Positions 4,379-23,550 of a stretch of DNA of 24,000 bases are shown here, piece after piece. A program made the translations under genes and the position numbers. Position 1 is the first letter of the stretch. Each line of letters starts with the position of its first letter. Origin of the DNA: Thermoactinomyces vulgaris. Lineage in GTDB: Bacteria; Bacillota; Bacilli; Thermoactinomycetales; Thermoactinomycetaceae. The stretch spans positions 64,291 through 88,290 of the forward strand of contig NZ_REFP01000007.1 of the NCBI RefSeq assembly GCF_003688725.1, given 5' to 3'. The notes under the pieces were generated by a model. It had not been told where the DNA came from and made no database searches. It worked only from the letters and a program-made list of their open reading frames with translations.

Positions 4379-4389
4379 GTTGACCTCCG

Positions 4390-5496: not shown

Positions 5497-5506
5497 GACA
5501 CATCCT

Positions 5507-7060: not shown

Positions 7061-7074
7061 CGTCAGTCATCCTT

Positions 7075-7188: not shown

Positions 7189-7205
7189 GGTATCACCTTC
7201 ATGGT

Positions 7206-7235
7206 TAGTGTGTTTCAATGTTTTGTTTTTCATGC
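7206..7235 (-). promoter_or_regulatory. Candidate sigma-G-type (forespore) promoter for the ger operon
   Basis: The minus strand reads GCATG (7235->7231), 18 nt, CACACTA (7212->7206). This fits the sigma-G consensus as I recall it (GHATR, 17-18 nt, CAHWHTA). Germinant receptor operons are sigma-G dependent in Bacillus. Caveat: the -10 ends 17 nt before ATG 7188, so the predicted transcript would start at or within the small ORF's SD. Confidence 0.45.
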
Positions 7236-7237
7236 GC

Positions 7238-7265
7238 AAAAAAAGACGGCCGGACATGGGCCGTC
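7238..7265 (-). terminator. Rho-independent terminator of the carboxypeptidase gene
   Basis: The minus strand reads GACGGCC-catgtcc-GGCCGTC followed by TTTTTTT, about 40 nt after the stop at 7303. Confidence 0.75.
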
Positions 7266-7302
7266 ACAGATTTTGTGAGAAAGGATCTTAAATCTTATAT
7301 TG

Positions 7303-8604: not shown

Positions 8605-8640
8605 GGGAACAAAGGCACTCCTTTCAAAAATATAATGAAT

Positions 8641-8691
8641 TGGATAAAGATTGAAACTATTCAATTGATAAAAGAAGGCAATCTTTATCCA
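8641..8691. repeat. Perfect 13-bp inverted repeat (25-bp spacer) in the carboxypeptidase upstream region
   Basis: TGGATAAAGATTG (8641-8653) and CAATCTTTATCCA (8679-8691) are exact reverse complements. The repeat lies 37-87 nt upstream of ATG 8604. Confidence 0.6.
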
Positions 8692-8752
8692 TATGAATAA
8701 TTCTATGTAAAAATATCAAAACCTTCTGAAATTCTTTTTTCTTGCATACTAA

Positions 8753-8818
8753 AAGGCAGGTGCTTTTGGTTTGGTCCTGTTGTTGTTTCACAGAGGATTA
8801 ACCAAAGGCACCTGCCTT
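8753..8818 (-). terminator. Probable mgtE terminator (long-stem hairpin)
   Basis: AAGGCAGGTGCTTTTGG (8753-8769) pairs with CCAAAGGCACCTGCCTT (8802-8818). This is a 17-bp stem with one mismatch and a 32-nt loop, and the loop can itself partly pair. On the minus strand it is followed by a short TTTTAG. It lies about 60 nt after the mgtE stop. The U-tract is weak. Confidence 0.5.
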
Positions 8819-8879
8819 CATCTCCTGATCAGAACTTTGATCGGTACTCAAAGTTTCATCAACCTCGATTCATCAGATT

Positions 8880-10232: not shown

Positions 10233-10250
10233 CTCGTTTCCCCCCTTTTA

Positions 10251-10482
10251 TAAAATAAAAAACTCCCACTGACGATGAGAGCGGGAGACAGAGCAAAACA
10301 AGCCCATTGAAGCATGAGCCGGCCTTTATCTCCCTCATCGAGCTTTGGCACTGCACGGCATAGGTTGTAACAACCAGCTACATTAGAAAAGACCTTCGTT
10401 CCGATCTTTTCTGCTGACCCATTGGCGTCTCTCGACATTTTTGGGCAGTAGCGTATCTCCGAACAGGAACCTCACCTAACAG
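10251..10482 (-). promoter_or_regulatory. M-box (ykoK-type) Mg2+ riboswitch with intrinsic terminator, in the mgtE leader
   Basis: The minus strand reads GTTAGGTGAGGTTCCTGTTCGGAGATACGCTACTGCCCAAAAATGTCGAGAGACGCCAATGGGTCAGCAGAAAAGATCGGAACGAAGGTCTTTTCTAATGTAGCTGGTTGTTACAACCTATGCCGTGCAGTGCCAAAGCTCGATGAGGGAG. This is nearly collinear with the B. subtilis mgtE M-box as I remember it (GUUAGGUGAGGCUCCUGUAUGGAGAUACGCUGCUGCCCAAAAAUGUC...GACGCUAAUGGGUCA...). The expression platform is CTCCCGC-tctcatcgtca-GTGGGAG followed by TTTTTATTTT (10251-10287). Then come the SD AAAAGGGGGGA and ATG 10232. Confidence 0.9.
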
Positions 10483-10521
10483 AGATAAAACCATGACAAT
10501 ATAAGGTTTTGAACGTTGTCA

Positions 10522-10551
10522 AGTATAACGCTTGGCAGAAAGGGTTGTCAA
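10522..10551 (-). promoter_or_regulatory. Candidate sigma-A promoter for the M-box/mgtE transcript
   Basis: The minus strand reads TTGACA (10551->10546), a 17-18 nt spacer, then TTATACT (10528->10522). It lies about 40 nt upstream of the first conserved M-box nucleotides. Confidence 0.55.
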
Positions 10552-10642
10552 TTGATCTTGTGTTGAAATTTCTTAAAGGACATATTGTCATTATATTTTA
10601 TTAAACAAGGGCGGGGAGGGTGCCATCCTGCAACCGGAAAGA

Positions 10643-10671: not shown

Positions 10672-10782
10672 ATACTTATATATTAATATAAATTTCGTTC
10701 TTCCATGAAAGCAGTCGTTCCAGTTCTATGTGGGTCTGAATCAGATATAGAAAGGAATTCCTTTTCGGGAAGGAGATGCGAG

Positions 10783-12186
10783 ATGAGTGTGGACCACAAG
10801 GCGTTGGAACGGGCGATTGCCGAAATCACAGAGATAGCCAAGGGTTTCGGGCTTGATTTTTATCCGATGAGATACGAAATTTGTCCGGCAGACATTATAT
10901 ATACTTTTGGTGCCTATGGCATGCCGACGCGGTTTTCACATTGGAGCTTCGGCAAAGCTTTTCACAAAATGAAACTGCAATACGATTTAAATTTAAGCAA
11001 AATTTATGAATTGGTCATTAACTCTAATCCTTGCTATGCTTTTTTGCTCAAGGGAAACAGCTTGACGCAAAACAAAATGATCGTGGCTCATGTCCTGGCG
11101 CATTGCGACTTTTTTAAGAACAACGTCCGTTTTTCGGCAACTTCCAGAGACATGGTGGAGACAATGGCCGCCAGCGCGGAGCGGATCCGCCAATATGAAA
11201 TGAAGTACGGGAAAGAAGTGGTGGAGGAATTTTTGGATCATGCCCTCGCCATTCAAGAGCACATCAATCCGAGCCTGTTGGATTTAAAAGCCAACCGGAA
11301 GAAAGCGAATCCGTCAACCCCTTCCAAACCTTCCACTCCTTATGATGACTTGTGGGAATTGGATCAACCGGAAAAACACCCGAAGCCTTCTCCAAAAAAG
11401 AAACAATTCCCTGAACAGCCGGAAAAAGATTTGGTTCTGTTTTTGATGAAACACAGCCGGGTGCTGGAAGATTGGCATCAGGACATTTTGACCATTTTGC
11501 GCAATGAGATGTTGTATTTCTGGCCGCAGCTGGAAACCAAAATCATGAATGAAGGTTGGGCCTCCTACTGGCACATCCGCATCATGCGCGAGTTGGATTT
11601 GAATGAAGAAGAGGCGATTGAATTTGCCGGTTTGAATGCCTCTGTCTTGCAACCTTCCAAAACATCCATCAATCCGTATTACCTGGGATTGAAGATGTTT
11701 GAAGACATTGAACGCCGGTGGGATCATCCAACCGAAAAAGAGCAGAGGGAGTTGGGGATGAAGCCCGGGCAAGGGCGGAAAAAAATCTTTGAAGTCCGTG
11801 AGTTGGATTCCGATATTTCCTTTTTGCGGAATTACCTGACCGAAGAGTTGGTGGAAAAACTGGATTTGTATGTATTCCAACGCAAAGGCGACGAGTGGAA
11901 AATCACGGACAAAAACTGGGAGTCGGTCCGGGATGAGCTGGTGATGAGCCGGATCAACGGGGGACATCCGTTCATTGTGGTGAAAGACGGGGATTATGCG
12001 GAAAACGGAGGGTTGTATTTGCTCCACCGGTATGAAGGCGTTGAGTTGGATACGAAATATCTGGAAAAAACGTTGCCGCATGTTTATGCATTATGGGGCC
12101 GCCCGGTCTATTTGGAGACAGTGATTGAAGAGAGAAAAGTGGTTTTTTGTTATAACGGGAAAAAATGCACACGGCGCTATTTGTGA
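10783..12186 (+). CDS. spoVR: Stage V sporulation protein R
   Basis: The N-terminus [83 protein letters not shown], and later [17 protein letters not shown], are highly characteristic of SpoVR. Preferred start is ATG 10783 (GGAAGGAG SD). The track's 10705 start adds 26 unsupported residues. Confidence 0.95.
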
Positions 12187-12190
12187 AAAA

Positions 12191-12230
12191 ATGTCCGCTT
12201 CAATTCGGGGTTGAAGCGGACATTTTTGTT
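12191..12230. terminator. Bidirectional rho-independent terminator between spoVR and the convergent repeat-protein gene
   Basis: ATGTCCGCTTCAA-ttcgggg-TTGAAGCGGACAT is a 13-bp perfect stem, flanked by AAAAAA upstream and TTTTGTTT downstream. Confidence 0.85.
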
Positions 12231-15200
12231 TATTCACCGGAACGCGGCTCCTCCTGTTGAGCATCTTCTGTTCCGGCTTCCGATCCGGTTTCCGGCTCCT
12301 CTTTACCCCGGGTTTTCATTTCCTCTTTATCCGGCGTTTCCGTTTCTTCTTCTTCCAGCTGTTTTTCTTCCCCGGTTGTTTCGGTTTCCGCGATGTCCGT
12401 TGCAGAGGAAATGGTTAACGGGAGAAAGGGTTGGACCGGGTCATCCGTTAATGGGTTGTGGTTTTGTTCATCTTCTTCTTCCTGTTTCACCGTTTTTGGA
12501 TGATGGTCGGAATTGGCGTTTTCCGGTTTTTTCTCTTCGCTTGCGACATTGTCTGTGTCCGGAACCGGGATGGCGGCAGGAATGTCATCCACCGGGGTTT
12601 GTCGGGCGAACCAGTGAAGCAATCCTTCGATGGAGGTCGTGGATTCATGATTGCGGTCGATTTGGATGACAAAGTGGTCGGCGTGATTTTCTTTCAGTGT
12701 CACCAGGCATTCCGGATGATTGGTGATGGCCACGACGGCATAGGGCGATTTAATCGGAGTGGCCAACGGGATTTGAAACGTCCGTCCGGACATATTTTCT
12801 TCCAGTTGGAAGCGGGCAATGCCTGAAACCGTGGCAGGTTGTTCATCCGCAAGGAGCGGACGGAAATTCAATTTCTCCAAGCCGATGCTTTGATCAGCGA
12901 TTTTTTCGGTGGTCACTGCTTGGTCCGTCAGATGTTCCGCAGAAATGGCGCCGGATTCAATGTGTGTTCCCTGGATTTGTTTTTTGGCGATGTGGCAGGA
13001 CAAAATCGCATCATCGTTGATATGGCGGGGGAAGATGGACTGGGATGCCAACTTGTCGGAATGAACGGCTTGATCTTGAAGCAGATCGGTTGAAATGGCT
13101 CCTTGCTCAATGTGCATTTCCTGGATTTGCCGTTGGGCAATGTGCCAGGAGCGCACGGAATCATCTGCGATATGGCGCGGCAAGATGGAATGCGAAGCCA
13201 GTTTGCCGGCATCGACCGCGTCATCTTGAAGATGGGCTTTGGTGATGGCTTCTTCTTGGATGTGCCGGCCGGAGACGGCCGTATCTTCAATATGGTGGCC
13301 TTGGATTTGCTCTTTTTCAATGTGCCGGGACAAAACGGCACCGGCTGAAATGTGCGGGGACAAGATTGCATTTTGGGCCAGATGGCGGGCCGCGATGGCT
13401 TCATCCTGGATGTGTCCGGATGCCACGGATTGTTCCGCGATATGCTTCGACTCGATTTGCTTTTCCTGAATATGCCCGGATTGAATGGCCTCTTCTTGGA
13501 TGTGCCGGCCGGAGACGGCTGTATCTTCAATATGGTGGCCTTGGATCTGTTCTTTTCTGATATGACGTGACAAAACGGCACCGGCTGAGATGTGCAATGA
13601 CCCGACAGCTTCCTCGTTCAGATGATGTTCGCAAATCGAGTTTTCATCCAGGTGTCCGCTTTGGATCTGTTGTTCCCCGATGTGGTGAGACAAAACGGAT
13701 GCGGCGGACAGATGCCGGGACGATATGGAGTCGGATGTCAAATGCCGGGAAGAAACCGTTTCATCACAGAGCAGCTCCCCGGAAATGGATTGTTCCTGAA
13801 TGTGCCGGGCGCTGATTTGCTTATCCTGAATATGCTCGGCGTTGACGGCTTTATCTTGAATATGACGGGATTTGATCTGGTGATTGGCGATTTTTTCGCT
13901 GACGATGGCATGGTCTTTTAAATGGTCCGTGTGAATTTCGCCGTGTTTCAGATGTTTTGCGTTGATTGCCCCGTCCTCAATGTGATTTTCGCCGATGGAT
14001 TGGTCTTGCAGATGGTGGCTTTGGATCTGCTTTTCCCCGATATGCCGGGATAATACGGCTTCAGCGTCAAGATGTCGGGATTCGACCGATTTTTCTCCAA
14101 GGTTGCGGGCATGGATCGCTTCATTTTGGATCAGTTCGTTGGAAATGGACTGGTCTTTGATGTGCTCCGGACCAATTTGTTTTTCCCGGATGTGGCGGGA
14201 GGTGACGGATTCGCTGTGGAGATGGCGGGAATCGATTTCGCCTTCTCCGATTTTTTCTGCGGTCACTGCTTGATCTTTCAAATGCCGTGTGTGAATTTGC
14301 CCGTTTTTGATGTGATGGTCCTCAATGGACTGATCCGCAATATGTTGGTTTTCGATGACGGAGTGGTCCAGTTTTTCTTTGGTGATGGCTCCGTCGACGA
14401 TGTGGGTGGACTGGACGGAAAAAGGTGCGATGTGATGGCCGCTGATGGTGGCGGATCCGATGTGTTTTCCCTGAATGCTTTCATTGGCCAGTTTATCCCC
14501 GTAGACGGATTCGTCCGCCAGATGTTTGTGTTGGATTTGCCCCCGGTCAATGTGTCTGGACTGGATGATCTGTTCTCCCAGATGTTCCCGCAAAATGGTG
14601 TGGTGTCCGATTTTTTCGGACGTGACGCATCCGTTGGCCAGTTTGTTCGAAGTGATGGCAAAGTCGTTGATTTTGTCGGTGGATACCGATTCCGGAGCCA
14701 GTTTGGAAGTGGAAATCGAATGGTCGATCAACTTGGAACCGGAAATGGAATGATTGGCCAAATGTTGCTCATTGATGCTTGCTTCCTGGATGTGGCGTTT
14801 GTTGATGCTGTTTTCTTGCAGGTGTTCTTCGCCGATGATTTTCCTGTTCAGATGTTTTTCCTGAATGGCGCCTTCGGCAATGGCTTCGGCATGGACACTG
14901 TTTGGGGCGATGTGTTGTTCTTTGACGGAATCCGGGGTCAAATGTTCATGGGTGATGATGCCCGGCTGCAAATGATCTTTGTGAATGGATTGATTTCGGA
15001 TTTGTTGTCCGGTGATGGATTGATGGGTGATTTTTTCCCCCGGGATGGATTGTTCCCCGAAATGGTGGGGGCTGATGGCTTTTTCCTGAATGTGGGAACC
15101 TTGAATGGAGCCGGGTTGAATGTGTTGGGATTCGATGGATTGAGATGCGATTTTGTCGCTGGTGACAGCGCCGTTTTGCAATTTGCTTTCGGAGACGGAT

Positions 15201-15901
15201 TCATCGGCCAGTTTTGCTTGGTTCACGACTTCGTTTTCCAAATGAATGGTGCGGATGGAACCGCTTTTTAATTTTTCGCCGCTGATGGACTGATCGGCCA
15301 AATGCTCATTTAAAATATGGCCCAGTGACAAATGTTTGCTTTGGATCGAGCGTTCTTTGAGTTTGCTTTCATTGATGCTGCCGTCTGATAATTTGCTGCC
15401 GGGAATTTCATTGTCTTTAATGTGTTTGGCTTGAATGGAATCTTTTTTGATGTGGCTTCCTTCAATGGAATCATGATCCAGATGGAAGGAGCGGACTGCA
15501 TTTTTGGCAATTTTTTGTGAGGTGACGGCTTCATTTTTCAATTTGGATTCGGTTACGGCCGCCTGTTCAAGGTGATCGGTGCCAATGCTGTCCGGTTTGA
15601 TCTTTTTCCCGCTGATCGACTGGTTGGCGATTTTTTCCTCCGTGACGGCGGCGTCGGCGATGTCATTGGTGTAAATCGGCGAATGGCTTTGCCGGGTCTG
15701 GGTGGATGAAGTTTTTAAAGGTTTGGATAAATCGGACAGTTCCGCGGTGTTTTCCATGTCTTCCAACAGACCGGTTTTGTTCCGTTTCTTTTTCAATTCT
15801 GCTTGCTCCAATTGAATGAGTTCCTCCAAAATTCGTTCATCGGCCATGTAAGGAGAGGGACGTTCCCTTTTTTTGGCTGAATGAGACTTTCTCTTCTTCA
15901 A
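12230..15901 (-). CDS. Large (1,223 aa) decapeptide-repeat, histidine-rich protein of unknown function. It has a basic/coiled N-terminus, about 93 tandem 10-residue units, a non-repeat C-terminal module and an acidic tail
   Basis: A single uninterrupted ORF. TTG start at 15901 sits 8 nt after a strong GAAAGGAG SD. Internal diverged duplications differ mainly at synonymous positions, which supports real translation. No signal peptide. It ends at the bidirectional terminator. Confidence 0.85.
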   Translation of the reverse strand: MKKRKSHSAKKRERPSPYMADERILEELIQLEQAELKKKRNKTGLLEDMENTAELSDLSKPLKTSSTQTRQSHSPIYTNDIADAAVTEEKIANQSISGKKIKPDSIGTDHLEQAAVTESKLKNEAVTSQKIAKNAVRSFHLDHDSIEGSHIKKDSIQAKHIKDNEIPGSKLSDGSINESKLKERSIQSKHLSLGHILNEHLADQSISGEKLKSGSIRTIHLENEVVNQAKLADESVSESKLQNGAVTSDKIASQSIESQHIQPGSIQGSHIQEKAISPHHFGEQSIPGEKITHQSITGQQIRNQSIHKDHLQPGIITHEHLTPDSVKEQHIAPNSVHAEAIAEGAIQEKHLNRKIIGEEHLQENSINKRHIQEASINEQHLANHSISGSKLIDHSISTSKLAPESVSTDKINDFAITSNKLANGCVTSEKIGHHTILREHLGEQIIQSRHIDRGQIQHKHLADESVYGDKLANESIQGKHIGSATISGHHIAPFSVQSTHIVDGAITKEKLDHSVIENQHIADQSIEDHHIKNGQIHTRHLKDQAVTAEKIGEGEIDSRHLHSESVTSRHIREKQIGPEHIKDQSISNELIQNEAIHARNLGEKSVESRHLDAEAVLSRHIGEKQIQSHHLQDQSIGENHIEDGAINAKHLKHGEIHTDHLKDHAIVSEKIANHQIKSRHIQDKAVNAEHIQDKQISARHIQEQSISGELLCDETVSSRHLTSDSISSRHLSAASVLSHHIGEQQIQSGHLDENSICEHHLNEEAVGSLHISAGAVLSRHIRKEQIQGHHIEDTAVSGRHIQEEAIQSGHIQEKQIESKHIAEQSVASGHIQDEAIAARHLAQNAILSPHISAGAVLSRHIEKEQIQGHHIEDTAVSGRHIQEEAITKAHLQDDAVDAGKLASHSILPRHIADDSVRSWHIAQRQIQEMHIEQGAISTDLLQDQAVHSDKLASQSIFPRHINDDAILSCHIAKKQIQGTHIESGAISAEHLTDQAVTTEKIADQSIGLEKLNFRPLLADEQPATVSGIARFQLEENMSGRTFQIPLATPIKSPYAVVAITNHPECLVTLKENHADHFVIQIDRNHESTTSIEGLLHWFARQTPVDDIPAAIPVPDTDNVASEEKKPENANSDHHPKTVKQEEEDEQNHNPLTDDPVQPFLPLTISSATDIAETETTGEEKQLEEEETETPDKEEMKTRGKEEPETGSEAGTEDAQQEEPRSGE
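12863..15670 (-). repeat. In-frame 30-bp (decapeptide) tandem repeat array, about 93 units, degenerate at the DNA level
   Basis: Residues ~78-1013 follow [S/A]-[I/V]-x-x-x-[H/K]-[I/L]-x-x-x without register breaks that I could see. Examples: SIEGSHIKKD SIQAKHIKDN, AVLSRHIGEK QIQSHHLQDQ. On the plus strand this shows as a recurring (g/a)atgtg every 30 nt. Confidence 0.9.
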
Positions 15902-16111
15902 AGGTCGTACTCCTTTCTATCGGGCATTTTCCACTCTCTTTTAGGTATATGCATCAAAATGAAAAATGGAAACATGTCAAATCAAAATCGCACAACGCCA
16001 GTATTCATCGGGTTTCCTAAGAATAACCATTTATTACATATTAAAGGAGCGTGGATTTATGTTAGTATGAACCTAGCTTTGGGAGCGGCAAAAATGGAAG
16101 AGGAGGATTTG

Positions 16112-16786
16112 ATGCAAAACAGTAAAAAATTTATTAAATTGGGAATTACTGTCGCAGCATCTCTTGTGATTTCTACAGGACTTCCGGCAGGCATCACACA
16201 TGCCGCCACTTTGGAAACGGCCAACCATTCCTTGATTTCCCAGATTTTCAAACAGTTTGGTTGGGCGTTCAAGGGAAAAACGGCAAATGCACAGCCTGAA
16301 AATCCGGAAGCTTCAGAACCGTCCGGACAAACCACGGTTCCTGAAAACCAAACTGGACAAGCACCGTCCGATAACGGGCAAACGGATACAGAACAAACAG
16401 CTACGACCAAAGCAGACCAGATTATTGCAACAGGAGAAAAATATTTGGGAACACCTTACCAGTTTGGCGCTAAATCAGGACAAACCAAAACCTTTGATTG
16501 TTCTTCTTTCGTTCAACATGTGTTTAAAGAAAACGGCATTGATCTGCCGCGTAACTCCCGTCAACAATCAACGGTTGGACAAACGGTTCCTTTCAGTGAA
16601 ATCCAAAAGGGGGATTTGTTGTTCTTTGAGCTGAGCAGCAATCCGGGACGGATCGGCCATGTGGGCATTTATGCCGGGAACAACAAAATCTTGCATACCT
16701 GGGGACCGGGTGGTGTCCGGTATGACGATTTGTCCGACCGCTGGTTGAAAGAAGGGTTTGTCAAAGCCCAACGTGTGATTCAGTAA
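16112..16786 (+). CDS. Secreted NlpC/P60 (C40) peptidoglycan/gamma-glutamyl endopeptidase
   Basis: Signal peptide MQNSKKFIKLGITVAASLVISTGLPAGITHAAT, then a low-complexity P/E/Q/T linker. The C-terminal NlpC/P60 domain has the catalytic Cys context YQFGAKSG.TKTFDCSSFVQHVF and the His context GRIGHVGIYAGNNKILH. ATG 16112 follows AGAGGAGGA. The track start at 15881 overlaps the divergent gene and is rejected. Confidence 0.9.
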   Translation: MQNSKKFIKLGITVAASLVISTGLPAGITHAATLETANHSLISQIFKQFGWAFKGKTANAQPENPEASEPSGQTTVPENQTGQAPSDNGQTDTEQTATTKADQIIATGEKYLGTPYQFGAKSGQTKTFDCSSFVQHVFKENGIDLPRNSRQQSTVGQTVPFSEIQKGDLLFFELSSNPGRIGHVGIYAGNNKILHTWGPGGVRYDDLSDRWLKEGFVKAQRVIQ

Positions 16787-16853
16787 ACGTGTGATTCGGT
16801 AAATTCGGAAAAAACATCCGTTGAAAATATTCGTTGTCGCTCCAACGAATGAA

Positions 16854-16893
16854 AATGACTGCTCAGATCTTGTTTCTGAGCAGTCATTTGTTT
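16854..16893. terminator. Bidirectional terminator between the NlpC/P60 gene and the convergent GNAT gene
   Basis: AATGACTGCTCAG-atcttgttt-CTGAGCAGTCATT is a 13-bp perfect stem, followed by TGTTTAATTTT on the plus strand and TTCATTCGTT on the minus strand. Confidence 0.75.
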
Positions 16894-17389
16894 AATTTTC
16901 CGGAACCGGGATTCTGACAGACGGTTCGGATTTCTTCAACACGTCCGCCGGATCGAAATTTCCCCCGCCCAGCCAGAGGGTGTCTTTTCCGGTCGGGCCT
17001 TTACATAGCGAAAAAGCCATCAATCCGCATGAAAAACACAGTTTTAAGCTGGGGATGTTGTCGGAAGCGACCCGGGCATATACTTTCCCCAAGGATTGGA
17101 TCGCTTGCTTCAAAAGTTGTTCCCCCACCCGTTTCCGGCGGTAATCCGGATGGACCGCGATGAAAGATTCTTCAATTCCGTAGTTTCCAAAGACAATGAT
17201 TCCCGCCACTTTTTTTTCGTCATAAGCGGCGGCGATATAAGTTCCTTCCTTCAATTCTCCAGGCGTCAACCGGTGGAACCACCGCATCGCCTGATGGGTG
17301 ATTCTCCCGTCTCCGTATCGTCTCAAAAAGCGGAGCAGGGGTTTTCGGATCCGCTCCAACGATTGCGGCGGAAATGCATGAATTTTCAT
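16892..17389 (-). CDS. GNAT-family N-acyltransferase, last gene of the ATP-grasp operon
   Basis: 165 aa. GNAT core pattern YIAAAYDEKKVAGIIVFGNYGIEESFIAVHPDYRRKRVGEQLLKQAIQSL (beta4-alpha3 CoA pyrophosphate-binding region). Its ATG 17389 overlaps the upstream stop as ATGA. Confidence 0.75.
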   Translation of the reverse strand: MKIHAFPPQSLERIRKPLLRFLRRYGDGRITHQAMRWFHRLTPGELKEGTYIAAAYDEKKVAGIIVFGNYGIEESFIAVHPDYRRKRVGEQLLKQAIQSLGKVYARVASDNIPSLKLCFSCGLMAFSLCKGPTGKDTLWLGGGNFDPADVLKKSEPSVRIPVPEN

Positions 17390-18708
17390 GTCGCCGTCCC
17401 CTCCGATGTATGTGAAAATCCGCTCAGGTACAATGAGTATTCAATCAAACGGCGCAAAGACCGTCTCCGGATGTTGGGTTCGTCAAATTTCATCGGCTTG
17501 GAATTGGCCTCAAAGATCCAAAGGCTTCCGTCTTTTTCAATGCCGAGATCCATCGACATTTCCCCCAGGAGGGCGTTTTGTTGGTTTTCAATCCACCGGG
17601 CGGTCCGGATGCCGACTTGTTCGATCCGTTCTTTGATACGATCTGTTTCGCTGCCAAACACGGATTGAAGTACCGTGTCGATTTTTTCGATGTGCCCTCC
17701 CATGGGAACATGGGTGGAAATTGCCCGTTCGCCGGCCACCCGGACCCCCATCCCTGATAACCCCCATCGGCCGGTGCCGTTTTTCTGGAGCAAAATGCGG
17801 ATGTCAAACGGATGGCCGTGAAAGGTGGCCAACGGGATGCCTTGTTGCAAAATATAGGCGGTTTTTTGTTTCAGCCGGTTGTACAAATCCCAAACTTCTT
17901 TCAGGGTCCGCACCCGGTATTTCTTTTTTTCCCTGGTGGTCTGGTAGGAGAGTTCATAGTGCTGCTTTTTTTTGTCAAGGCGCATCATTTTGATGCCGGC
18001 TTTTCCTTCGACCGGTTTAAAATAAAGAACCGGATGTTTGGCGGCCATGCGCTCCAATTGTTCCATGTGGTGAAGCCGGACGGTTTCCGGTAACAGCCGG
18101 TGTAAGTCGGGAGAAGCGGCAAGCTGTTGGTACAGCGTCCATTTGTCAAAAAAGCCGGGGTTAAACAGGTAAACGCCCGGCATTTGCTGCAGTTGCCGGA
18201 TGGTTTGCCGGACTTCCGGGGTTTTTTCAATCATCCGGTTGGGGATGCGATTGTACACGACATTCGGGAAGGGCAGCCGGGCCGCTTTCCACCGCGGTTT
18301 CACCGAATGAGGATCCAGCAGATATCCGTTGACGGTGGAATGGTTGCCGATGCCTTGGGGCGTAAGGACAAACACGGTGACGCCCATTTCTCTTCCCGTC
18401 CGGATCAAGTCGGCGAAATTTTGGTGATTTCCTCCAAACGGCTTTTTATTGTTTGAGGTTAATATGGCGACAAAAGGACCGGCTTGATAATGATTCTTCC
18501 GGGACAAATGCCTGAGGCGGGCGGGCGTGTGATGGGATTGGCTGGGCCTGCCGTGGGGGTTGAATCTGATTTTCGCTTTCGTGTGACGGCCGATAATGGC
18601 AGAAACCATGCCGGGAAACTGTTTTTTTGGATATCGTCTGAGCGGAACAAATTCCAGGGTGTTTTTGTTTGGTACGATGGACAGCCAGCCGGCTTTGGGT
18701 AATTTCAT
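17386..18708 (-). CDS. YheC/YheD-family ATP-grasp protein, paralogue 4 (D)
   Basis: It shares family blocks with the three upstream paralogues: PFVAILTS, FPNVVYNRIPNR, LPET, VLYFKP, HPFDIRILLQKNG, EMSMDLGIEKDGSLWIFEANSKP. Preferred start is ATG 18708 (GGGGGAG SD 9 nt upstream), which avoids a 28-nt overlap with paralogue C. Confidence 0.85.
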   Translation of the reverse strand: MKLPKAGWLSIVPNKNTLEFVPLRRYPKKQFPGMVSAIIGRHTKAKIRFNPHGRPSQSHHTPARLRHLSRKNHYQAGPFVAILTSNNKKPFGGNHQNFADLIRTGREMGVTVFVLTPQGIGNHSTVNGYLLDPHSVKPRWKAARLPFPNVVYNRIPNRMIEKTPEVRQTIRQLQQMPGVYLFNPGFFDKWTLYQQLAASPDLHRLLPETVRLHHMEQLERMAAKHPVLYFKPVEGKAGIKMMRLDKKKQHYELSYQTTREKKKYRVRTLKEVWDLYNRLKQKTAYILQQGIPLATFHGHPFDIRILLQKNGTGRWGLSGMGVRVAGERAISTHVPMGGHIEKIDTVLQSVFGSETDRIKERIEQVGIRTARWIENQQNALLGEMSMDLGIEKDGSLWIFEANSKPMKFDEPNIRRRSLRRLIEYSLYLSGFSHTSEGTAT

Positions 18709-18728
18709 AAGATGGCGCTCCCCCTTTG

Positions 18729-20096
18729 TTAAATGAAGTTGGTCAGATTTAAACAATAATCGGTTATATATTTTGCAGACATGCGCCCGGCTTCGCGCAA
18801 ACTCGGATGCAAGAAGATGTGCCTGCCCGGTTTGGCATTCACTTCAAAAAGCCAAACGCGGCCGTTGCGGTCCACCCCGATGTCCAGCCCCAACTCTCCC
18901 AGGGTTCCGTCAATCTGTTCTTCCAATGTTTCGGCAATGGTGATGGCGGAGCGGATGATCATTTTTTTCACTTCAGAGGCATGCTGATGGAATGTTTTAA
19001 GAAGCAGTTCATCCGTCCGGATGATGGAGCCTCCGGTCCTGACATGTGTTGTGACGCAACCGAAACCGGCTGCCTTGGAGCCGATGGCAACCACTTTCCA
19101 GTGCCCTTTGCTGTCTTTGTGCATGTGAACACGGAAATCGACAGGTCGGTGGTTATTCCGGATCAACCGGATCCCCTGCTGAACGAGATATTTTTTGAAC
19201 CGGGGAGAGTGGATGCTGCCAAAATAATGGCTGATTAACGCTTTTAAAGACCGGAACAGGTGAAGGACGTTTTTGTTCCCTTTGTGGAACCGGCAATAGT
19301 AACCTTTTCCCGGGTGGTAAGTGATGCGGAAAATCCCCAGCCCCAAACTGCCGCCACTGGGCTTTAAATAGACCATCCGATGCTCTTTCAGCATTCTTTC
19401 CATGATCTCCAGAGTGGGGGGCATGTAAGTTTCGGGCATGAAAGTGGATGTTGCCGGATGGTGGTTCAGCATCTGATGGATGGACCATTTGTTGAAAAAG
19501 CCTTGGTTGAAGATTTTGCAAGCGGTGTTTTTTTTGAAGCGGTTTAAACAGGACTGAACCTGGGCCATGGATTCAGCCCGGCGATTGGGAATCCGTTCAT
19601 AAATGACATCGGGAAACGGTGAGAACAAGGGATGCCAACGATTTTGGAAGAAGTACCATCCCCGGACGGTTTGATTCTGCCAATTCACCATTTCCGGAGT
19701 AAAGACATAGATGAATGGTTTTTCGTCAAAACCCGCTTGAATGAAACTACGAAATAACTGGGTCCGGTTGCCGAAAGGTTGTTCCGGGTGGTGGCGGAAA
19801 CCGGTGGTGAGGATGCCGATCACGGGTCCGAATTTCAACGTTTTGTCGGTAAACAGAGCCCGGATGGTTCCCGTGTAAGGGAAGAGCAACTGTCTGGCGA
19901 CCGCCGGGGAAAGGAAAATCTTGTTTCCGGCCAGTGGAGCGATGATCACCCGGGTGATCATCGTTTTGTTTCCAAGTTGAATTTTAATGGATTGCCCGCT
20001 TTGGCATCCCCATAAATTCCCTAATGCCTGGCTGATCACAATGGCTTTGGCCGGAGTTTTGGAGTGAATTCGTATTTGGCAAAGGATTGATTTCAT
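18729..20096 (-). CDS. YheC/YheD-family ATP-grasp protein, paralogue 3 (C), with an N-terminal ~95-aa extra domain
   Basis: Family blocks: FGPVIGILTT, FPDVIYERIPNR, MPET, MVYLKPSGGSLGLGI, RPVDFRVHMHKD, ELGLDIGVDRNGRVWLFEVNAKPG. The ATG lies 10 nt after the stop of paralogue B, with a GAGGG SD in the gap. Confidence 0.85.
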   Translation of the reverse strand: MKSILCQIRIHSKTPAKAIVISQALGNLWGCQSGQSIKIQLGNKTMITRVIIAPLAGNKIFLSPAVARQLLFPYTGTIRALFTDKTLKFGPVIGILTTGFRHHPEQPFGNRTQLFRSFIQAGFDEKPFIYVFTPEMVNWQNQTVRGWYFFQNRWHPLFSPFPDVIYERIPNRRAESMAQVQSCLNRFKKNTACKIFNQGFFNKWSIHQMLNHHPATSTFMPETYMPPTLEIMERMLKEHRMVYLKPSGGSLGLGIFRITYHPGKGYYCRFHKGNKNVLHLFRSLKALISHYFGSIHSPRFKKYLVQQGIRLIRNNHRPVDFRVHMHKDSKGHWKVVAIGSKAAGFGCVTTHVRTGGSIIRTDELLLKTFHQHASEVKKMIIRSAITIAETLEEQIDGTLGELGLDIGVDRNGRVWLFEVNAKPGRHIFLHPSLREAGRMSAKYITDYCLNLTNFI

Positions 20097-20106
20097 ACTG
20101 ACCCTC

Positions 20107-21207
20107 CTAGCTGTTCAATAAGGCATTCGCATATTGAATGGGAAACTGGATGGCACGCCGCCGCACTTCCAGTTCTCCGGTTTTTAAGAAAACGGACCGC
20201 CCGGGTTTTGAGTTGACTTCAATAATCCAGACATCTTTGTTTTCATCGATGCCGATATCGATTCCCAGCTCTACCAGAGGACCGTGACGGCTTTCGATAA
20301 ACGGGGGCACGATTTCACTCAGATAGTTGATGGTCGAGGAAATTTTGGCTGCTTCTTGCGGGGTGTAATGCTGCTTTAAAAAAGGTTGGAACGGTAAAGC
20401 TTGCCCGCCGCCGTGCAAATTGGAGGTGATGGAATCGGGTTGGCCGGTCCGGATGGCATGCCCCGTTGTTTCCCATCTTTTTTGTCCGTTTTTTTGGACC
20501 AGAATCCTGACATCAAACGGGCGTCCATCCGGTGTGTTCAGCGACAAAAGAGGTTGAAGGATGTAACGGGTGTCCCGGATGGTTTGTTCCACCCAATGGC
20601 TGAGTTGGACCAGGGTTTGAAATTGAACGGAAAAAGGCCGGTTGAATTTCGTCCGCCCTTTCAGCAAGAAAGAGGAGGGGGGGATTTGTTCGATGGCGAC
20701 CACTCCTCTTCCGTGACTGCCGCCATTGGGTTTGATCAAAACACGGTTATGTTTCCGGAGGAAAGAGAACAGCTCTTGTGCATGGGTCAACCGCTTGGTT
20801 TCCGGGAGATAAGTCCGGATTTCCGGATGCTCTTTCAAGATGAGATAGGTTTGGTATTTCCCGCCCAAAGCTCTTCCAAGCAACCGGATTTGCGGGTCTT
20901 GGGTGATTTTTTGAACATGGGGTTTATACTTCATATAATGCCGGGCGTTGACATAATAACAACGGTCATAGATCAAATACGGCAGCGGAACCGTCTGTTG
21001 TTTCCAACGCTGATTGTGATAATGCCAAGCCGGAACCGTTCTGGTTTTCCAATGAATCCGGCCCGGATTGAATATAAAGACTTCCAGCCCCTGCTTTTTT
21101 CCTTCGAGTGTCAGTTGTTCAAAGAATGTGTGCTCTTTAAACGGAGGGTGTTTTTGGTTGTTTCCGTAGCAAACCATTATGCCAAGCCTGTTTTTTTGAT
21201 CGGTCAT
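20107..21207 (-). CDS. YheC/YheD-family ATP-grasp protein, paralogue 2 (B), lacking the N-terminal extra domain
   Basis: 366 aa. Family blocks: RLGIMV, LPYLIYDR, LPET, VLIKPNGGSHGRGV, RPFDVRILVQKNG, ELGIDIGIDENKDVWIIEVNSKPG. The start overlaps the stop of paralogue A as ATGA (21204-21207). Confidence 0.85.
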   Translation of the reverse strand: MTDQKNRLGIMVCYGNNQKHPPFKEHTFFEQLTLEGKKQGLEVFIFNPGRIHWKTRTVPAWHYHNQRWKQQTVPLPYLIYDRCYYVNARHYMKYKPHVQKITQDPQIRLLGRALGGKYQTYLILKEHPEIRTYLPETKRLTHAQELFSFLRKHNRVLIKPNGGSHGRGVVAIEQIPPSSFLLKGRTKFNRPFSVQFQTLVQLSHWVEQTIRDTRYILQPLLSLNTPDGRPFDVRILVQKNGQKRWETTGHAIRTGQPDSITSNLHGGGQALPFQPFLKQHYTPQEAAKISSTINYLSEIVPPFIESRHGPLVELGIDIGIDENKDVWIIEVNSKPGRSVFLKTGELEVRRRAIQFPIQYANALLNS

Positions 21208-22628
21208 CGCCGTTGCCTCCTCATGATCCCGGAAGTCGTCGAAGGAGAAGGGGCGGGAGGATGTTTTCCTTGCTTGGAAAGGTATAGCACGTAGTCGATC
21301 AACCGCAACACGGACGGGCGAAAATGGCTGTTTGGATTAATCACGGTGTCATCGGTTTTGGATGGTTTGGAATTGATTTCAATCAGCCAGATTTTTCCGT
21401 GCACATCAATGGCCAGATCGATTCCGAGTTCGGCGAAATGGCCGTCGGCCAAACGTTCAAACGTTTTGGCGATGTCAAGTGCGGCGGCCCGAAGTTGGTG
21501 GATGGACGGTTTGTTTGGATAGGACAATTCCTTCAAAACATCACTTGCTTTGCGGATTGTACCTCCACGGGCCAGATTGGATACAATATGTTGAATGTTG
21601 GCAATCCGCGCAACGGAAGAAGTGATTTTCCAAACCCCTTCCTTGGTTTTTTGTGCCAAAATGCGAAAGTCTACCGGCCGGTAGTCAAATTTCATCAGCC
21701 TGAGTCCCTGTTGGGCGATGTAAGGCTGGCTTCTGATTTTTTGTTTTAACAATTTCATCAGGCTGGAATGGTTCTTCAAGGTTCGGCGAACCGTTCCCCC
21801 TGGAGTGGACAGTTGATAAATCCACCTGTTTTTGGAATGGGTTATCTTGATGATCCCGCTTCCCAGACTGCCGTTGGTCGGTTTGAGATAAACGGTGGAG
21901 TATCGTTTAAAGAGGGATAAGGCCCTCGGATCGCGGAATGAATAGGTTTCCGGCAATCGCGAACGGATTGCTTCATCTTGGACCAGGATTTGATAAACCT
22001 GTAATTTATCCAAAAACCTCTCATTAAAGATGGGGATCCGGAAAAGGTTTTTTAACAGGGACATTTTTTTCTGCAAAGATTCTTGTTGCTCGATGCGGCG
22101 TGAGTTGATGCGGTTGTAAATTACATCCGGGAGCGGGTATTTTGTACATTGCCACCGGTTTTTCTGTTTGATCCAGACGGTCGTTTCATTCCGGTTTAAA
22201 TCGATGTGTTCCGGCGTGATGACAGCGACCCGGATCCCTCTCATCTGACCGGCAGTGATGCATTCATCCAGAAATTTGGTCATCAGGCCAAAAGGTTGAG
22301 CACGCTTTTCCTGTGGATGGGCATTGATCAAAATGCCAAAAACAGGTCCAAATCGCAAGCGGAGAGAATGTGCGTCAAAATGGGCCCGAATCCATGGCTG
22401 AGGGTTCATTTTCAATTGCTCGGCAAGCTCAGAGCTGATGCAAATCAGTTTATGGTTCATGCGACTGAAAGCGACTCGTCCTTTTGCGATGGCTGAACCA
22501 AATGCGACTGAGAAAACCGGGGTTTTTATCTCCAATTTTTTGGCCAAAGCCTGACTCATCACCAGATCAATGTGGTGAGGAAGCTGATGTTGCGACAAGA
22601 TTTGAATTTGTACTTGTGCCAGCCCCAT
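21204..22628 (-). CDS. YheC/YheD-family ATP-grasp protein, paralogue 1 (A), with an N-terminal ~100-aa extra domain
   Basis: Family blocks: FGPVFGILIN, LPDVIYNRINSR, LPET, TVYLKPTNGSLGSGI, RPVDFRILAQK, ELGIDLAIDVHGKIWLIEINSKPS. Preferred start is ATG 22628 (GGAAGGGGA SD 5 nt upstream). The track start at 22685 has no SD. Confidence 0.85.
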   Translation of the reverse strand: MGLAQVQIQILSQHQLPHHIDLVMSQALAKKLEIKTPVFSVAFGSAIAKGRVAFSRMNHKLICISSELAEQLKMNPQPWIRAHFDAHSLRLRFGPVFGILINAHPQEKRAQPFGLMTKFLDECITAGQMRGIRVAVITPEHIDLNRNETTVWIKQKNRWQCTKYPLPDVIYNRINSRRIEQQESLQKKMSLLKNLFRIPIFNERFLDKLQVYQILVQDEAIRSRLPETYSFRDPRALSLFKRYSTVYLKPTNGSLGSGIIKITHSKNRWIYQLSTPGGTVRRTLKNHSSLMKLLKQKIRSQPYIAQQGLRLMKFDYRPVDFRILAQKTKEGVWKITSSVARIANIQHIVSNLARGGTIRKASDVLKELSYPNKPSIHQLRAAALDIAKTFERLADGHFAELGIDLAIDVHGKIWLIEINSKPSKTDDTVINPNSHFRPSVLRLIDYVLYLSKQGKHPPAPSPSTTSGIMRRQRR

Positions 22629-22639
22629 GACAATCCCCT

Positions 22640-22700
22640 TCCGCCTGTAAAATACTAATGTATGGTATGTGGGCGTCAACCGCATGGTGAATAAAACAGG
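22640..22700 (-). promoter_or_regulatory. Candidate promoter region of the ATP-grasp operon (ambiguous sigma assignment)
   Basis: The minus strand reads ...TTCACCATGCGGTTGACGCCCACATACCATACATTAGTATTTTACAGG. One reading is sigma-A-like: TTGACG (22679->22674), 16 nt, TAGTAT (22657->22652). Alternatively there are two overlapping CATAnnnTA motifs (CATACCATA and CATACATTA) with an AC 17 nt upstream of the first. That resembles the mother-cell sigma-K pattern as I recall it. These are low-information motifs. Confidence 0.3.
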
Positions 22701-22860: not shown

Positions 22861-23550
22861 ATGAACATTACATATCACGGACATTCTTGTTTTGAAATTG
22901 AAACCCCGAAACACCGCATTGTCATTGACCCGTTTTTAAGCGGCAATCCGCTGGCGAAAGCGAAACCGGAAGAGATCAAGGCAGATTGGATTTTATTGAC
23001 GCACGGTCATGACGACCACGTCGGGGATACGGTGGACATTGCCAAGCGGAATCAAGCGACCGTGATCGCCCCCCATGAATTGGCCGTCTGGCTCGGTTTC
23101 CAAGGGGTGAATGCCCATGGCATGTCCATTGGCGGAGGCTATTCGTTTGATTTTGGCCATGTCAAAATGGTGAATGCGCTGCATGGTTCCGGATTTGTCA
23201 AAAATGAAGAACAACAAATCATTTATTTGGGACCACCATCCGGTTTTGTGCTGACCTTGGAAGGTAAAACCATTTACCATGCAGGGGACACTGCGCTTTA
23301 CTCTGATATGAAACTGATTGGAAGAGGAAAAGAAATCGATTTGGCCCTTCTCCCCATCGGGGACAATTTCACCATGGGGCCGGAAGATGCGCTGACGGCT
23401 GCGGAATGGATCGGGGCCAAGCATGTGATTCCGATGCATTACAACACGTTCCCGCCGATCCGGCAAGATGCCGGCGCTTTTGTGGAGAAACTGAATGCCA
23501 AAGGTATGAGCGGCAGTGTGCTTGGCGTCGGCGAAACATTCACCCTCTAA
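22861..23550 (+). CDS. UPF0173-family metal-dependent hydrolase (metallo-beta-lactamase fold, YtkL-like)
   Basis: [33 protein letters not shown]...[16 protein letters not shown], about 229 aa. The N-terminus and the HxHxDH motif are typical of the UPF0173 family. The SD AGAAGGAGGA precedes the ATG. Confidence 0.9.

What the first reader, a model, noticed from the sequence alone, without database searches (positions are those of the whole stretch)
16892..22685. Translationally coupled operon of four YheC/YheD-type ATP-grasp paralogues plus a GNAT: a candidate multi-step amide-ligation system of unknown product
Seen: four consecutive minus-strand genes (about 474, 366, 455 and 440 aa) are clear paralogues. 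They share blocks such as GP(V/F)(I/F/V)(G/A)IL, P(D/N)V(I/V)Y(N/E)R, LPET, (Y/I/F)(L/F)KP, RP(V/F)D(F/V/I)R, and E(L/M)(G/S)(I/L/M)D(I/L)...W(L/I)(I/F)E(I/V/A)N(S/A)KP. The last block is the ATP-grasp Mg/ATP region. A 165-aa GNAT closes the operon. The junctions are ATGA overlaps (21204-21207 and 17386-17389) or 10- and 20-nt gaps holding only an SD, so expression is probably stoichiometric and coupled. Established: this is the YheC/YheD ATP-grasp family. The B. subtilis members are, as I recall, sporulation-expressed and coat-associated, and no substrate or product has been defined for the family. Inference: four diverged ligases in series suggest ordered addition of several different residues, either a defined oligopeptide or peptide tag, or a heteropolymer. 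The GNAT could cap an amine or act as an aminoacyl/acyl transferase. The gene logic superficially resembles microviridin-type graspetide clusters (two ATP-grasp ligases plus a GNAT), but these ligases belong to a different family and I found no precursor-peptide ORF. A protein or cell-envelope/spore substrate therefore seems more likely than a RiPP.
Basis: partly seen in the sequence, partly recalled or inferred. Interest (0 to 1): 0.75.

Follow-up and report, generated by a model that had tools for sequence, protein, structure and literature searches.

The report
Four-ligase spore-coat YheC/YheD operon
This is a real, deeply conserved sporulation operon of four different ATP-dependent amide-forming enzymes plus an acetyltransferase. 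It is the full ancestral form of the uncharacterised Bacillus subtilis spore-coat genes yheC-yheD, and nobody yet knows what it makes.

Summary
Five minus-strand genes (A 474 aa, B 366, C 455, D 440, GNAT E 165) run from a promoter to a hairpin terminator, with ATGA overlaps or gaps of 10 and 20 nt.

- **Family:** all four ligases match Pfam PF14398 (YheC/D ATP-grasp) at E 1e-74 to 1e-79. All keep the ATP/Mg catalytic residues across about 80 orthologues each.
- **Age and order:** the paralogues are ancient (25-31% identity; each group monophyletic, 100% NJ bootstrap). The A-B-C-D order is kept in every one of 80 loci from Thermoactinomycetaceae, Paenibacillus, Cohnella, Brevibacillus and Ammoniphilus that shows these genes, and in Bacillus gobiensis.
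- **B. subtilis:** it keeps only B (= YheC) and C (= YheD) at the syntenic yhe locus.
- **GNAT:** it is an accessory, present in 49 of 80 loci.
- **Promoter:** a mother-cell, sigma-K-type promoter (TCACC-N16-CATAnnnT) precedes gene A in 76 of 78 upstream regions tested (window included), against about 3 expected by chance.
- **N-terminal domains:** A and C carry a double-psi beta-barrel like the p97/VAT N-domain.

No product or substrate is known; a 2021 paper still calls YheD's function unknown. The best reading is ATP-dependent amino-acid ligation or cross-linking on spore-coat proteins. It is a new member of a known but uncharacterised family, of moderate interest.

The parts
22686..22691 (-). 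-35-like element TTCACC of a sigma-K-type mother-cell promoter
   Evidence: Coordinates. TCACC-N16-CATAnnnT is found upstream of gene A in 76 of 78 loci, against 2.9 in shuffles. C at position 4 of the -35 distinguishes sigma-K from sigma-E promoters (PMC517825).
22661..22669 (-). -10-like element CATACCATA (CATAnnnTA)
   Evidence: The 16-nt spacing from TCACC is the same in Thermoactinomycetaceae, Paenibacillus/Cohnella and B. gobiensis.
21204..22628 (-). Gene A, 474 aa: N-terminal double-psi beta-barrel-like domain (about residues 1-95, 22344-22628), then pre-ATP-grasp and YheC/D ATP-grasp domains
   Evidence: PF14398 E = 3.3e-74. The N-domain is homologous to that of C (hhalign 99%, E = 5.6e-18). 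K249, Q306, D320, R322, E400, D404, E417 and N419 are invariant in 78 orthologues.
20107..21207 (-). Gene B, 366 aa: YheC/D ATP-grasp ligase without an N-terminal barrel; orthologue of B. subtilis YheC
   Evidence: PF14398 E = 4.3e-76. Catalytic residues are invariant in 80 orthologues. It groups with B. subtilis YheC at 97% bootstrap. Its start overlaps A's stop as ATGA.
18729..20096 (-). Gene C, 455 aa: double-psi beta-barrel (residues 1-92, 19821-20096) plus YheC/D ATP-grasp ligase; orthologue of B. subtilis YheD
   Evidence: PF14398 E = 1.4e-76. AF2 model pLDDT 94.9. The N-domain matches VCP/p97-type DPBB with TM 0.63-0.72. It is 33% identical to B. subtilis YheD, E = 5e-85, and groups with YheD.
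17386..18708 (-). Gene D, 440 aa: YheC/D ATP-grasp ligase with a short, poorly conserved N-extension that is not homologous to the barrel
   Evidence: PF14398 E = 3.3e-79. Catalytic residues are invariant in 80 of the 81 aligned sequences. The N-extension shows no homology to A or C and is absent in Paenibacillus.
16892..17389 (-). Gene E, 165 aa: GNAT acyltransferase, translationally coupled to D by an ATGA overlap; an accessory gene
   Evidence: PF00583 E = 5.3e-10. The R-x-x-G-x-G CoA loop and a subfamily-specific GPTGKPTL motif are conserved in the 50 aligned sequences (49 loci plus the window). The gene is present in 49 of 80 loci.
16853..16889 (.). Hairpin terminator (15-bp stem) shared by the operon and the convergent NlpC/P60 gene

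Best explanation
**What it is.** The locus is one transcription unit: a sigma-K-type promoter, genes A-B-C-D-E, then a terminator. It is the complete, ancestral form of the Bacillus subtilis yheC-yheD spore-coat operon. It encodes four anciently diverged YheC/YheD-family ATP-grasp carboxylate-amine ligases, all catalytically intact, plus an accessory GNAT.

**Shown:**
- Family membership.
- Intact ATP/Mg sites in all four orthologous groups.
- Conserved gene order across three families of Bacillales.
- Orthology of B to YheC and of C to YheD.
- A conserved mother-cell-type promoter.
- A p97-N-like double-psi beta-barrel on A and C.

**Inferred mechanism.** The proteins are made together in the mother cell late in sporulation and assemble on the forespore surface, as YheD does in B. 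subtilis. There each enzyme activates a carboxylate as an acyl-phosphate. The carboxylate would be a protein C-terminus or an Asp/Glu side chain, as for the structural relatives RimK, TTL/TTLL and the graspetide ligases. Each enzyme then joins the acyl-phosphate to an amine, either a free amino acid or a Lys side chain. The four enzymes would act with different specificities, possibly in sequence. Together they would build peptide branches or isopeptide cross-links on spore-coat proteins. The barrels of A and C would hold the protein substrate or partner. Where present, the GNAT would acetylate a resulting amine.
For: - **Operon anatomy:**
- **Family:** PF14398 at E 1e-74 to 1e-79.
- **Active sites:** K(P), Q, D-x-R, E...D and E-x-N are invariant in each of the four groups over about 80 species.
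- **Gene order:** A-B-C-D is conserved in 80 of 80 loci and in B. gobiensis.
- **Age of paralogues:** each group is monophyletic at 100% bootstrap.
- **B. subtilis locus:** it has only YheC and YheD in the same synteny (YheA/YheB upstream, DUF5342 and SASP downstream). YheC groups with B at 97% bootstrap. YheD is the best match of C.
- **Promoter:** the motif is found in 76 of 78 loci against 2.9 expected. The sigma-K versus sigma-E rule comes from PMC517825.
- **B. subtilis biology:** yheCD are in the sigma-E regulon and activated by SpoIIID. YheD forms a SpoIVA-dependent shell around the forespore and self-interacts strongly.
- **Fold of C:** the nearest solved structures are graspetide ligases, RimK, Pby1/TTL, Ddl and GshB.
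- **N-domain:** a DPBB with TM 0.63-0.72 to VCP/p97 N-domains, which bind proteins.
- **Fusions:** natural proteins with 2-3 YheC/D modules exist in Desulfitobacterium, Anoxybacillus, Salirhabdus and Dethiobacter. This argues that the modules work together.
Against: - No substrate, product or phenotype is known for any family member.
- No candidate substrate gene is co-conserved with the operon across families.
- Fold similarity is equally good to small-molecule ligases (Ddl, GshB, PurK), so a protein substrate is not demonstrated.
- The promoter assignment is by consensus only. B. subtilis yheCD is reported as sigma-E dependent, not sigma-K dependent.
- The barrel could serve oligomerisation rather than substrate binding.
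- B. subtilis manages with two of the four enzymes, and Anoxybacillus flavithermus is reported to lack yheD (PMC3533761), so a strictly ordered four-step pathway is not obligatory.
Confidence: 0.5

Rival explanations
1. The four ligases form an assembly line for a free, non-ribosomal small peptide or amino-acid polymer. The logic would resemble MurC-F, L-amino-acid ligases or cyanophycin synthetase. The GNAT would N-acetylate the product, which would be stored in or deposited on the spore.
For: There are four distinct, conserved, translationally coupled ligases in fixed order. Fold similarity also extends to Ddl, GshB and PurK. A GNAT is coupled to D.
Against: No exporter, amino-acid-supply or tailoring genes are co-conserved. 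The GNAT is missing in 31 of 80 loci. A and C carry a protein-binding-type barrel. B. subtilis YheD is a stably localised, self-interacting coat-shell protein.
Confidence: 0.22
2. The enzymes modify mother-cell-made spore envelope polysaccharide or peptidoglycan (cortex) precursors. They would add or amidate amino acids on stem peptides or glycans.
For: There are weak Pfam hits to the 'sugar-transfer associated ATP-grasp' family PF14397. In Thermoactinomycetaceae the NlpC/P60 gene is the immediate convergent neighbour, and SpoVR lies in the window. In B. subtilis, YheD first appears as two rings at the forespore.
Against: The P60 neighbour is lineage-restricted, lies on the opposite strand and has its own signal peptide. 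No glycosyltransferase or Mur genes are linked. The PF14397 scores are marginal: 33-36 bits against a cutoff of 31.4 for A and B, and below the cutoff for C.
Confidence: 0.1
3. The proteins are mainly structural or scaffolding coat components whose ATP-grasp fold is an exapted relic without catalysis.
For: A comparative-genomics preprint (10.1101/2022.02.25.481979) notes that coat 'enzymes' are 'not necessarily active'. YheD self-interacts strongly.
Against: Every ATP/Mg-binding and catalytic residue is invariant in all four orthologous groups across families that diverged to 35-45% identity. A relic would not be expected to keep them.
Confidence: 0.08
4. It is a graspetide-type RiPP cluster: ATP-grasp macrocyclases plus a GNAT, as in microviridin, acting on a ribosomal precursor peptide.
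For: The top Foldseek hit is a RiPP-associated ATP-grasp ligase (7mgv), with PsnB and MdnC also listed. The ligases-plus-GNAT gene logic is similar.
Against: The scores are indistinguishable from RimK and TTL. There is no hit to any RiPP-ligase model in NCBIfam or Pfam. No conserved small ORF adjoins the operon. There is no protease or exporter. The GNAT is dispensable.
Confidence: 0.04

Closest known systems
Bacillus subtilis yheC-yheD (endospore coat-associated proteins; Pfam PF14398)
   Same: Same family. B is the orthologue of YheC and C of YheD. The chromosomal neighbourhood is the same in Bacillus (YheA-like Com_YlbF and YheB-like DUF445 upstream) and partly so in Paenibacillaceae and Thermoactinomycetaceae. 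Expression is in the mother cell (sigma-E/SpoIIID in B. subtilis, PMC517825). Function is unknown in both.
   Different: B. subtilis has two genes; this operon has four ligases plus a GNAT. The promoter here has a sigma-K-type -35 (TCACC), whereas the B. subtilis upstream region reads TTCATAT (sigma-E type). The window lacks the YheA/YheB neighbours and has a YtkL-like metallo-hydrolase instead.
Tubulin tyrosine ligase / TTLL polyglutamylases and RimK (protein C-terminal or side-chain amino-acid ligases)
   Same: ATP-grasp fold with the same catalytic residues. They are among the nearest solved structures. There are weak sequence hits to TTL PF03133 and to TTLL6. Families of paralogues with distinct specificities act on one protein scaffold.
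   Different: Sequence identity is only 10-16%. The TTL Pfam hits cover only about 50 of 292 profile positions. The RimK family model scores far below its cutoff (15.6 against 143 bits). No protein substrate has been identified. The N-terminal barrel is not found in TTL or RimK.
Microviridin/graspetide clusters (MdnB/MdnC ATP-grasp ligases plus the MdnD GNAT)
   Same: Multiple ATP-grasp ligases and a GNAT in one operon, with a similar overall fold.
   Different: The ligase family is different. There is no precursor peptide gene and no exporter or protease. The GNAT is optional. Expression is sporulation-specific.
MurC-MurD-MurE-MurF ligase series
   Same: The logic of four paralogous ATP-dependent amide ligases that add successive residues. 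This analogy is from established knowledge.
   Different: The Mur ligases have a different fold (Mur ligase, acyl-phosphate/ADP-forming, but not ATP-grasp). Their substrates are known, and the Mur genes are not sporulation-specific.

Membership tests
YheC/YheD ATP-grasp family (PF14398) | Full-length match to the family profile above the curated threshold | tested here: met
   A 249.8, B 256.0, C 257.5 and D 266.2 bits against a cutoff of 26.8, covering profile positions 2-255 of 255.
YheC/YheD ATP-grasp family (PF14398) | Intact ATP-grasp nucleotide/Mg and catalytic residues | tested here: met
   K(P), hinge Q, D-x-R, E...D and E-x-N are invariant in each of groups A to D (78-81 sequences each).
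YheC/YheD ATP-grasp family (PF14398) | Orthology to the name-giving B. subtilis proteins | tested here: met
   YheC falls in group B at 97% bootstrap. YheD has its best BLAST scores to group C (281 against 229 for A) and joins C in the NJ tree, with 57% support for the exact split. C against YheD gives 33% identity, E = 5e-85. Synteny runs through B. gobiensis.
YheC/YheD ATP-grasp family (PF14398) | Mother-cell sporulation expression | tested here: inconclusive
   A conserved sigma-K-type promoter consensus is found in 76 of 78 loci. This is sequence evidence only; there are no expression data.
YheC/YheD ATP-grasp family (PF14398) | Localisation to the spore coat basement layer | not testable with these tools
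   Known only for B. subtilis YheD (PMC7911427, PMC7725329).
Graspetide (microviridin-type) RiPP cluster | Adjacent precursor-peptide gene | tested here: not met
   No conserved small ORF (at least 40 aa) lies next to the operon across loci. The DUF5342 small gene of Bacillus is absent elsewhere.
Graspetide (microviridin-type) RiPP cluster | Ligase belongs to the RiPP ATP-grasp maturase families | tested here: not met
   No NCBIfam or Pfam hit to such models at E <= 0.01. The fold similarity is no better than to RimK or TTL.
Tubulin-tyrosine ligase family (PF03133) | Profile match above threshold over the domain | tested here: inconclusive
   A scores 22.7 and B 27.2 bits (cutoff 20.1), but over only about 33-53 of 292 positions. 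C is below the cutoff and D has no hit. PDB TTLL6/TTL give E = 0.16-0.9.
RimK family (TIGR00768) | Profile match above the curated cutoff | tested here: not met
   B scores 15.6 bits against a cutoff of 143.4; the other three have no hit.
GNAT acetyltransferases (PF00583), gene E | Profile match and CoA-pyrophosphate loop R/Q-x-x-G-x-G/A | tested here: met
   40.0 bits against a cutoff of 20.7. R-x-x-G-x-G is conserved in the orthologue group; the window copy reads R-x-x-R-x-G.
Double-psi beta-barrel (cradle-loop barrel) N-domain of A and C | Fold match to solved DPBB domains | tested here: met
   The model has pLDDT 91. Foldseek gives TM 0.63-0.72 and rmsd 2.2-3.5 A to VCP-like ATPase DPBB and p97 N-domains. 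There is no Pfam sequence match.

The most novel reading that the evidence does not exclude
The operon would encode a spore-coat counterpart of the eukaryotic 'tubulin code'. It would be a set of four (five in Paenibacillus) paralogous ATP-grasp ligases, targeted by p97-N-like barrels. These would build a defined, multi-residue peptide branch or ATP-dependent isopeptide cross-links on coat proteins in the mother cell, optionally capped by a GNAT. This post-translational chemistry has not been described for bacterial spores. It may have been missed because B. subtilis keeps only half of the system.
Probability: 0.3. Interest if true: 0.8.

Novelty: new member of a known kind. Interest (0 to 1): 0.5.

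Why it matters
YheC/YheD proteins are among the widely conserved spore-coat 'enzymes' with no known activity. The family is large: 3,595 clusters at 50% identity in public data.

This analysis shows three things. The common ancestral form is a fixed-order operon of four distinct, catalytically intact ligases. The B. subtilis model retains only two of them. Two of the four carry a protein-binding-type barrel. Together these give a concrete, testable hypothesis: ATP-dependent amino-acid ligation on coat proteins. They also point to better experimental systems than B. subtilis, namely Paenibacillus, B. gobiensis and Thermoactinomyces.

If the hypothesis is confirmed, it would add a new enzymatic chemistry to spore-coat maturation, alongside transglutaminase cross-links. 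This bears on spore resistance and germination.

Tried and rejected
- **Key family paper not available.** Iyer et al. 2009 (amidoligases; PMC3268129, doi 10.1039/b917682a) probably first defined this family. It is not held in the library, so I could not check whether the multi-paralogue-plus-GNAT operon was already described there.
- **Pfam on the N-terminal domains.** A scan of the isolated domains of A, C and D at E <= 10 found nothing meaningful. The fold was identified only by modelling.
- **D's N-extension.** It has no detectable homology to the barrel of A or C.
- **GNAT against the PDB.** A sequence search gave no hit.
- **Specificity-determining positions.** Only 11 columns are conserved within each group yet differ between groups, and none has three or more states. 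This gives no usable substrate prediction.
- **Co-conserved substrate or precursor gene.** None was found. The flanking genes (HAD hydrolase, DRTGG/CBS protein, a small membrane protein, HTH regulator, YheA-like) look like synteny rather than function.
- **YheE-like DUF5342.** In Bacillus it follows D directly in B. gobiensis and lies downstream of yheD in B. subtilis, but it is absent from the other 82 loci and from the window.
- **Fused multi-module proteins.** Their modules cannot be assigned to groups A to D because the scores are nearly equal. They support joint function but not a particular order.
- **Graspetide, RimK and TTL membership.** All three were considered and rejected or left inconclusive (see the membership tests).

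Full report
**Observation**

The window is from a Thermoactinomyces genome. Protein C is 98% identical to a T. intermedius protein.

On the minus strand there are five consecutive genes:
- A, 21204-22628, 474 aa
- B, 20107-21207, 366 aa
- C, 18729-20096, 455 aa
- D, 17386-18708, 440 aa
- E, 16892-17389, 165 aa

The mechanical ORFs for A and D start further upstream.

The junctions are as described. There are ATGA overlaps at A/B and D/E. A 10-nt gap containing GGAGG separates B and C. A 20-nt gap containing GGGGGAG separates C and D. A 15-bp-stem hairpin at 16853-16889 lies directly after E. It also ends the convergent NlpC/P60 gene.

All four large proteins match Pfam PF14398 (YheC/D-like ATP-grasp) over the whole profile, at E = 3e-74 to 3e-79. 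E is a GNAT (PF00583, 5e-10).

**Conservation**

One scan of representative bacterial genomes returned 80 loci. I classified every ORF in them against the window proteins. A-B-C-D order held in every locus that was long enough to show it. Each position gave its best hit to the window gene at the same position. The loci come from 15 Thermoactinomycetaceae, Paenibacillus, Cohnella, Brevibacillus and Ammoniphilus.

An NJ tree was built on the shared region of about 345 aa, using 16 taxa for each of groups A to D and 7 for group F. It gives 100% bootstrap for the monophyly of each of A, B, C and D. The quadruplication therefore predates the split of these families. It is not a local amplification.

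The GNAT is present in 49 of 80 loci. These include all Thermoactinomycetaceae and about half of Paenibacillus/Cohnella. Brevibacillus has none. A fifth paralogue, F, is sister to B. It follows D or E in 55 loci.

The family is large, with 3,595 clusters at 50% identity. It includes natural fusions carrying two or three YheC/D modules in one polypeptide, in Desulfitobacterium, Anoxybacillus, Salirhabdus and Dethiobacter. This suggests the modules work together.

**Relation to B. subtilis**

In Bacillus gobiensis there are four YheC/D genes of 452, 361, 453 and 341 aa. Their best hits are A, B, C and D, in that order. They lie between YheA-like (Com_YlbF, 117 aa) and YheB-like (DUF445, 377 aa) genes on one side, and a DUF5342 gene, a SASP gene and two ABC genes on the other.

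The B. subtilis locus has the same flanks but only YheC (363 aa) and YheD (453 aa). YheC falls in group B at 97% bootstrap. YheD matches group C best and joins it in the tree. Window C and YheD are 33% identical, E = 5e-85. B. subtilis therefore keeps a reduced, two-gene form of the system.

YheA-like genes lie divergently upstream of A in 25 of the other loci. YheB-like genes are found upstream in Brevibacillus, Ammoniphilus and some Paenibacillus loci.

**Enzymology inferred from sequence and structure**

In each of the four orthologous groups the ATP-phosphate lysine (K-P), the hinge Q, D-x-R, E...D and E-x-N are invariant or nearly so (78-81 sequences per group). Twenty-four columns are shared by all four groups. 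This argues that all four are active enzymes.

An AlphaFold2 model of C (pLDDT 94.9) is closest to several solved ligases. These are graspetide ligases, RimK, Pby1/TTL, D-Ala-D-Ala ligase and glutathione synthetase. The E-values are similar (about 1e-9 to 1e-10) and identity is 10-16%. Sequence searches also give weak TTL/TTLL6 hits. The fold is thus a generic peptide or amino-acid ligase ATP-grasp fold. It has no single closest characterised family.

The first 92 residues of C were modelled alone (pLDDT 91). They form a double-psi beta-barrel that matches the N-domains of VCP-like ATPases and p97 (TM 0.63-0.72). A carries the homologous domain (hhalign 99%, E = 5.6e-18). B has none. D has an unrelated extension that is poorly conserved. 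In p97/VAT this barrel binds adaptors and substrates, according to established knowledge. A protein-binding role here is an inference.

**Regulation**

Upstream of gene A the motif TCACC-N16-CATAnnnT occurs in 76 of 78 loci. Shuffled sequences give 2.9, and 1.9% of random segments from the same loci carry it. In the window it lies at 22686-22691 and 22661-22669. The same motif precedes the B. gobiensis operon.

According to PMC517825, sigma-E and sigma-K promoters share the -10 element and differ at -35 position 4, with C for sigma-K. The conserved TCACC is therefore sigma-K-type. B. subtilis yheCD is reported as sigma-E dependent and activated by SpoIIID. Its upstream region reads TTCATAT, the sigma-E type. 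Either sigma factor points to the mother cell, where the coat is built and ATP is available.

**What is known**

B. subtilis YheD forms a SpoIVA-dependent shell around the forespore and self-interacts strongly. Its function 'has not yet been determined' (PMC7911427; PMC7725329). Four further full-text searches found no biochemical characterisation of any family member.

**Interpretation**

The best-supported reading (about 0.5) is a mother-cell-expressed, coat-associated set of ATP-dependent carboxylate-amine ligases. They would add amino acids or form isopeptide links on coat proteins. The GNAT would be an optional capping enzyme.

The rivals are:
- synthesis of a free peptide or polymer (0.22)
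- modification of the envelope glycan or peptidoglycan (0.10)
- a non-catalytic scaffold (0.08, disfavoured by the invariant active sites)
- a graspetide RiPP (0.04; no precursor gene and no match to RiPP-ligase models)

**Verdict**

The feature is real, ancient and already annotated as 'YheC/YheD family'. It is a new member of a known but functionally uncharacterised kind.

This analysis adds four things: the orthology map to B. subtilis, the ancestral four-ligase architecture, the barrel domains and the conserved promoter. Interest is 0.5.

Noticed in passing
window 12230-15901 (-): A 1,223-aa repeat protein with a WIAG-tail domain (NF012201, E = 1.5e-10) and weak pentapeptide-repeat hits. 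It ends in a strongly Glu-rich acidic tail. It lies beside the operon in 8 of the 15 Thermoactinomycetaceae loci but not in Paenibacillaceae. An acidic tail is the kind of substrate that TTLL and RimK enzymes use; this link is pure speculation.
   Followed up: partly
window 15881-16786 (+): A secreted NlpC/P60 peptidoglycan endopeptidase, convergent with the operon and sharing its terminator hairpin. The listed ORF start is over-extended into the repeat-protein gene. It is a neighbour in most Thermoactinomycetaceae loci only.
   Followed up: partly
L083 (Bacillus gobiensis CP012600.1) 5542-10593; L085 (B. subtilis) 5920-8730: B. gobiensis has the full four-ligase operon at the yhe locus, followed by a translationally coupled 69-aa DUF5342 (YheE-like) gene in the position where the GNAT sits in Thermoactinomyces. 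B. subtilis has only yheC-yheD-yheE. The DUF5342 gene is absent from the other 82 loci and from the window.
   Followed up: yes
proteins P0126, P0247, P0155, P0233 and others: Single polypeptides carry two or three YheC/D ATP-grasp modules, in Desulfitobacterium (1,382 aa), Anoxybacillus (892 aa), Salirhabdus (900 aa) and Dethiobacter (785 aa). One 1,628-aa protein is labelled Patescibacteria.
   Followed up: partly
window 22670-22685 and the same spacer in L003-L082: The 16-nt spacer inside the promoter is itself conserved within lineages: GGATAGATGTCC in Paenibacillus/Cohnella and ATACATGCCTA in most Thermoactinomycetaceae. It may be a binding site for a regulator such as SpoIIID or GerE. 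The window differs here (GGTTGACGCCCA), which creates a sigma-A-like TTGACG-16-TAGTAT match.
   Followed up: no
window 22861-23550 (+): A metal-dependent hydrolase of the metallo-beta-lactamase fold (NF001911, E = 6e-93), divergent from gene A. This pairing is conserved in Thermoactinomycetaceae, in Ammoniphilus, in one of the four Brevibacillus loci and in two MAGs.
   Followed up: no
window 3203-7060 (-), 7303-8664 (-), 10705-12186 (+): Other sporulation and germination genes lie in the window: a gerA-type germinant receptor operon (GerAC, GerAB, GerAA), an M14 zinc carboxypeptidase and SpoVR. M14 enzymes reverse tubulin glutamylation in eukaryotes, but this gene is about 8 kb from the operon and no linkage was tested.
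   Followed up: no
window 24-2098 (+): Genes for kynureninase and a putative cyclase (kynurenine-formamidase-like), that is, tryptophan catabolism.
   Followed up: no
gene E orthologues: The operon-linked GNATs form a distinct subfamily with a conserved C-terminal signature, DN..S..LCF..G..A.....GPTGKPTL. The signature is not seen in a generic GNAT profile, and there is no solved relative by sequence.
   Followed up: partly
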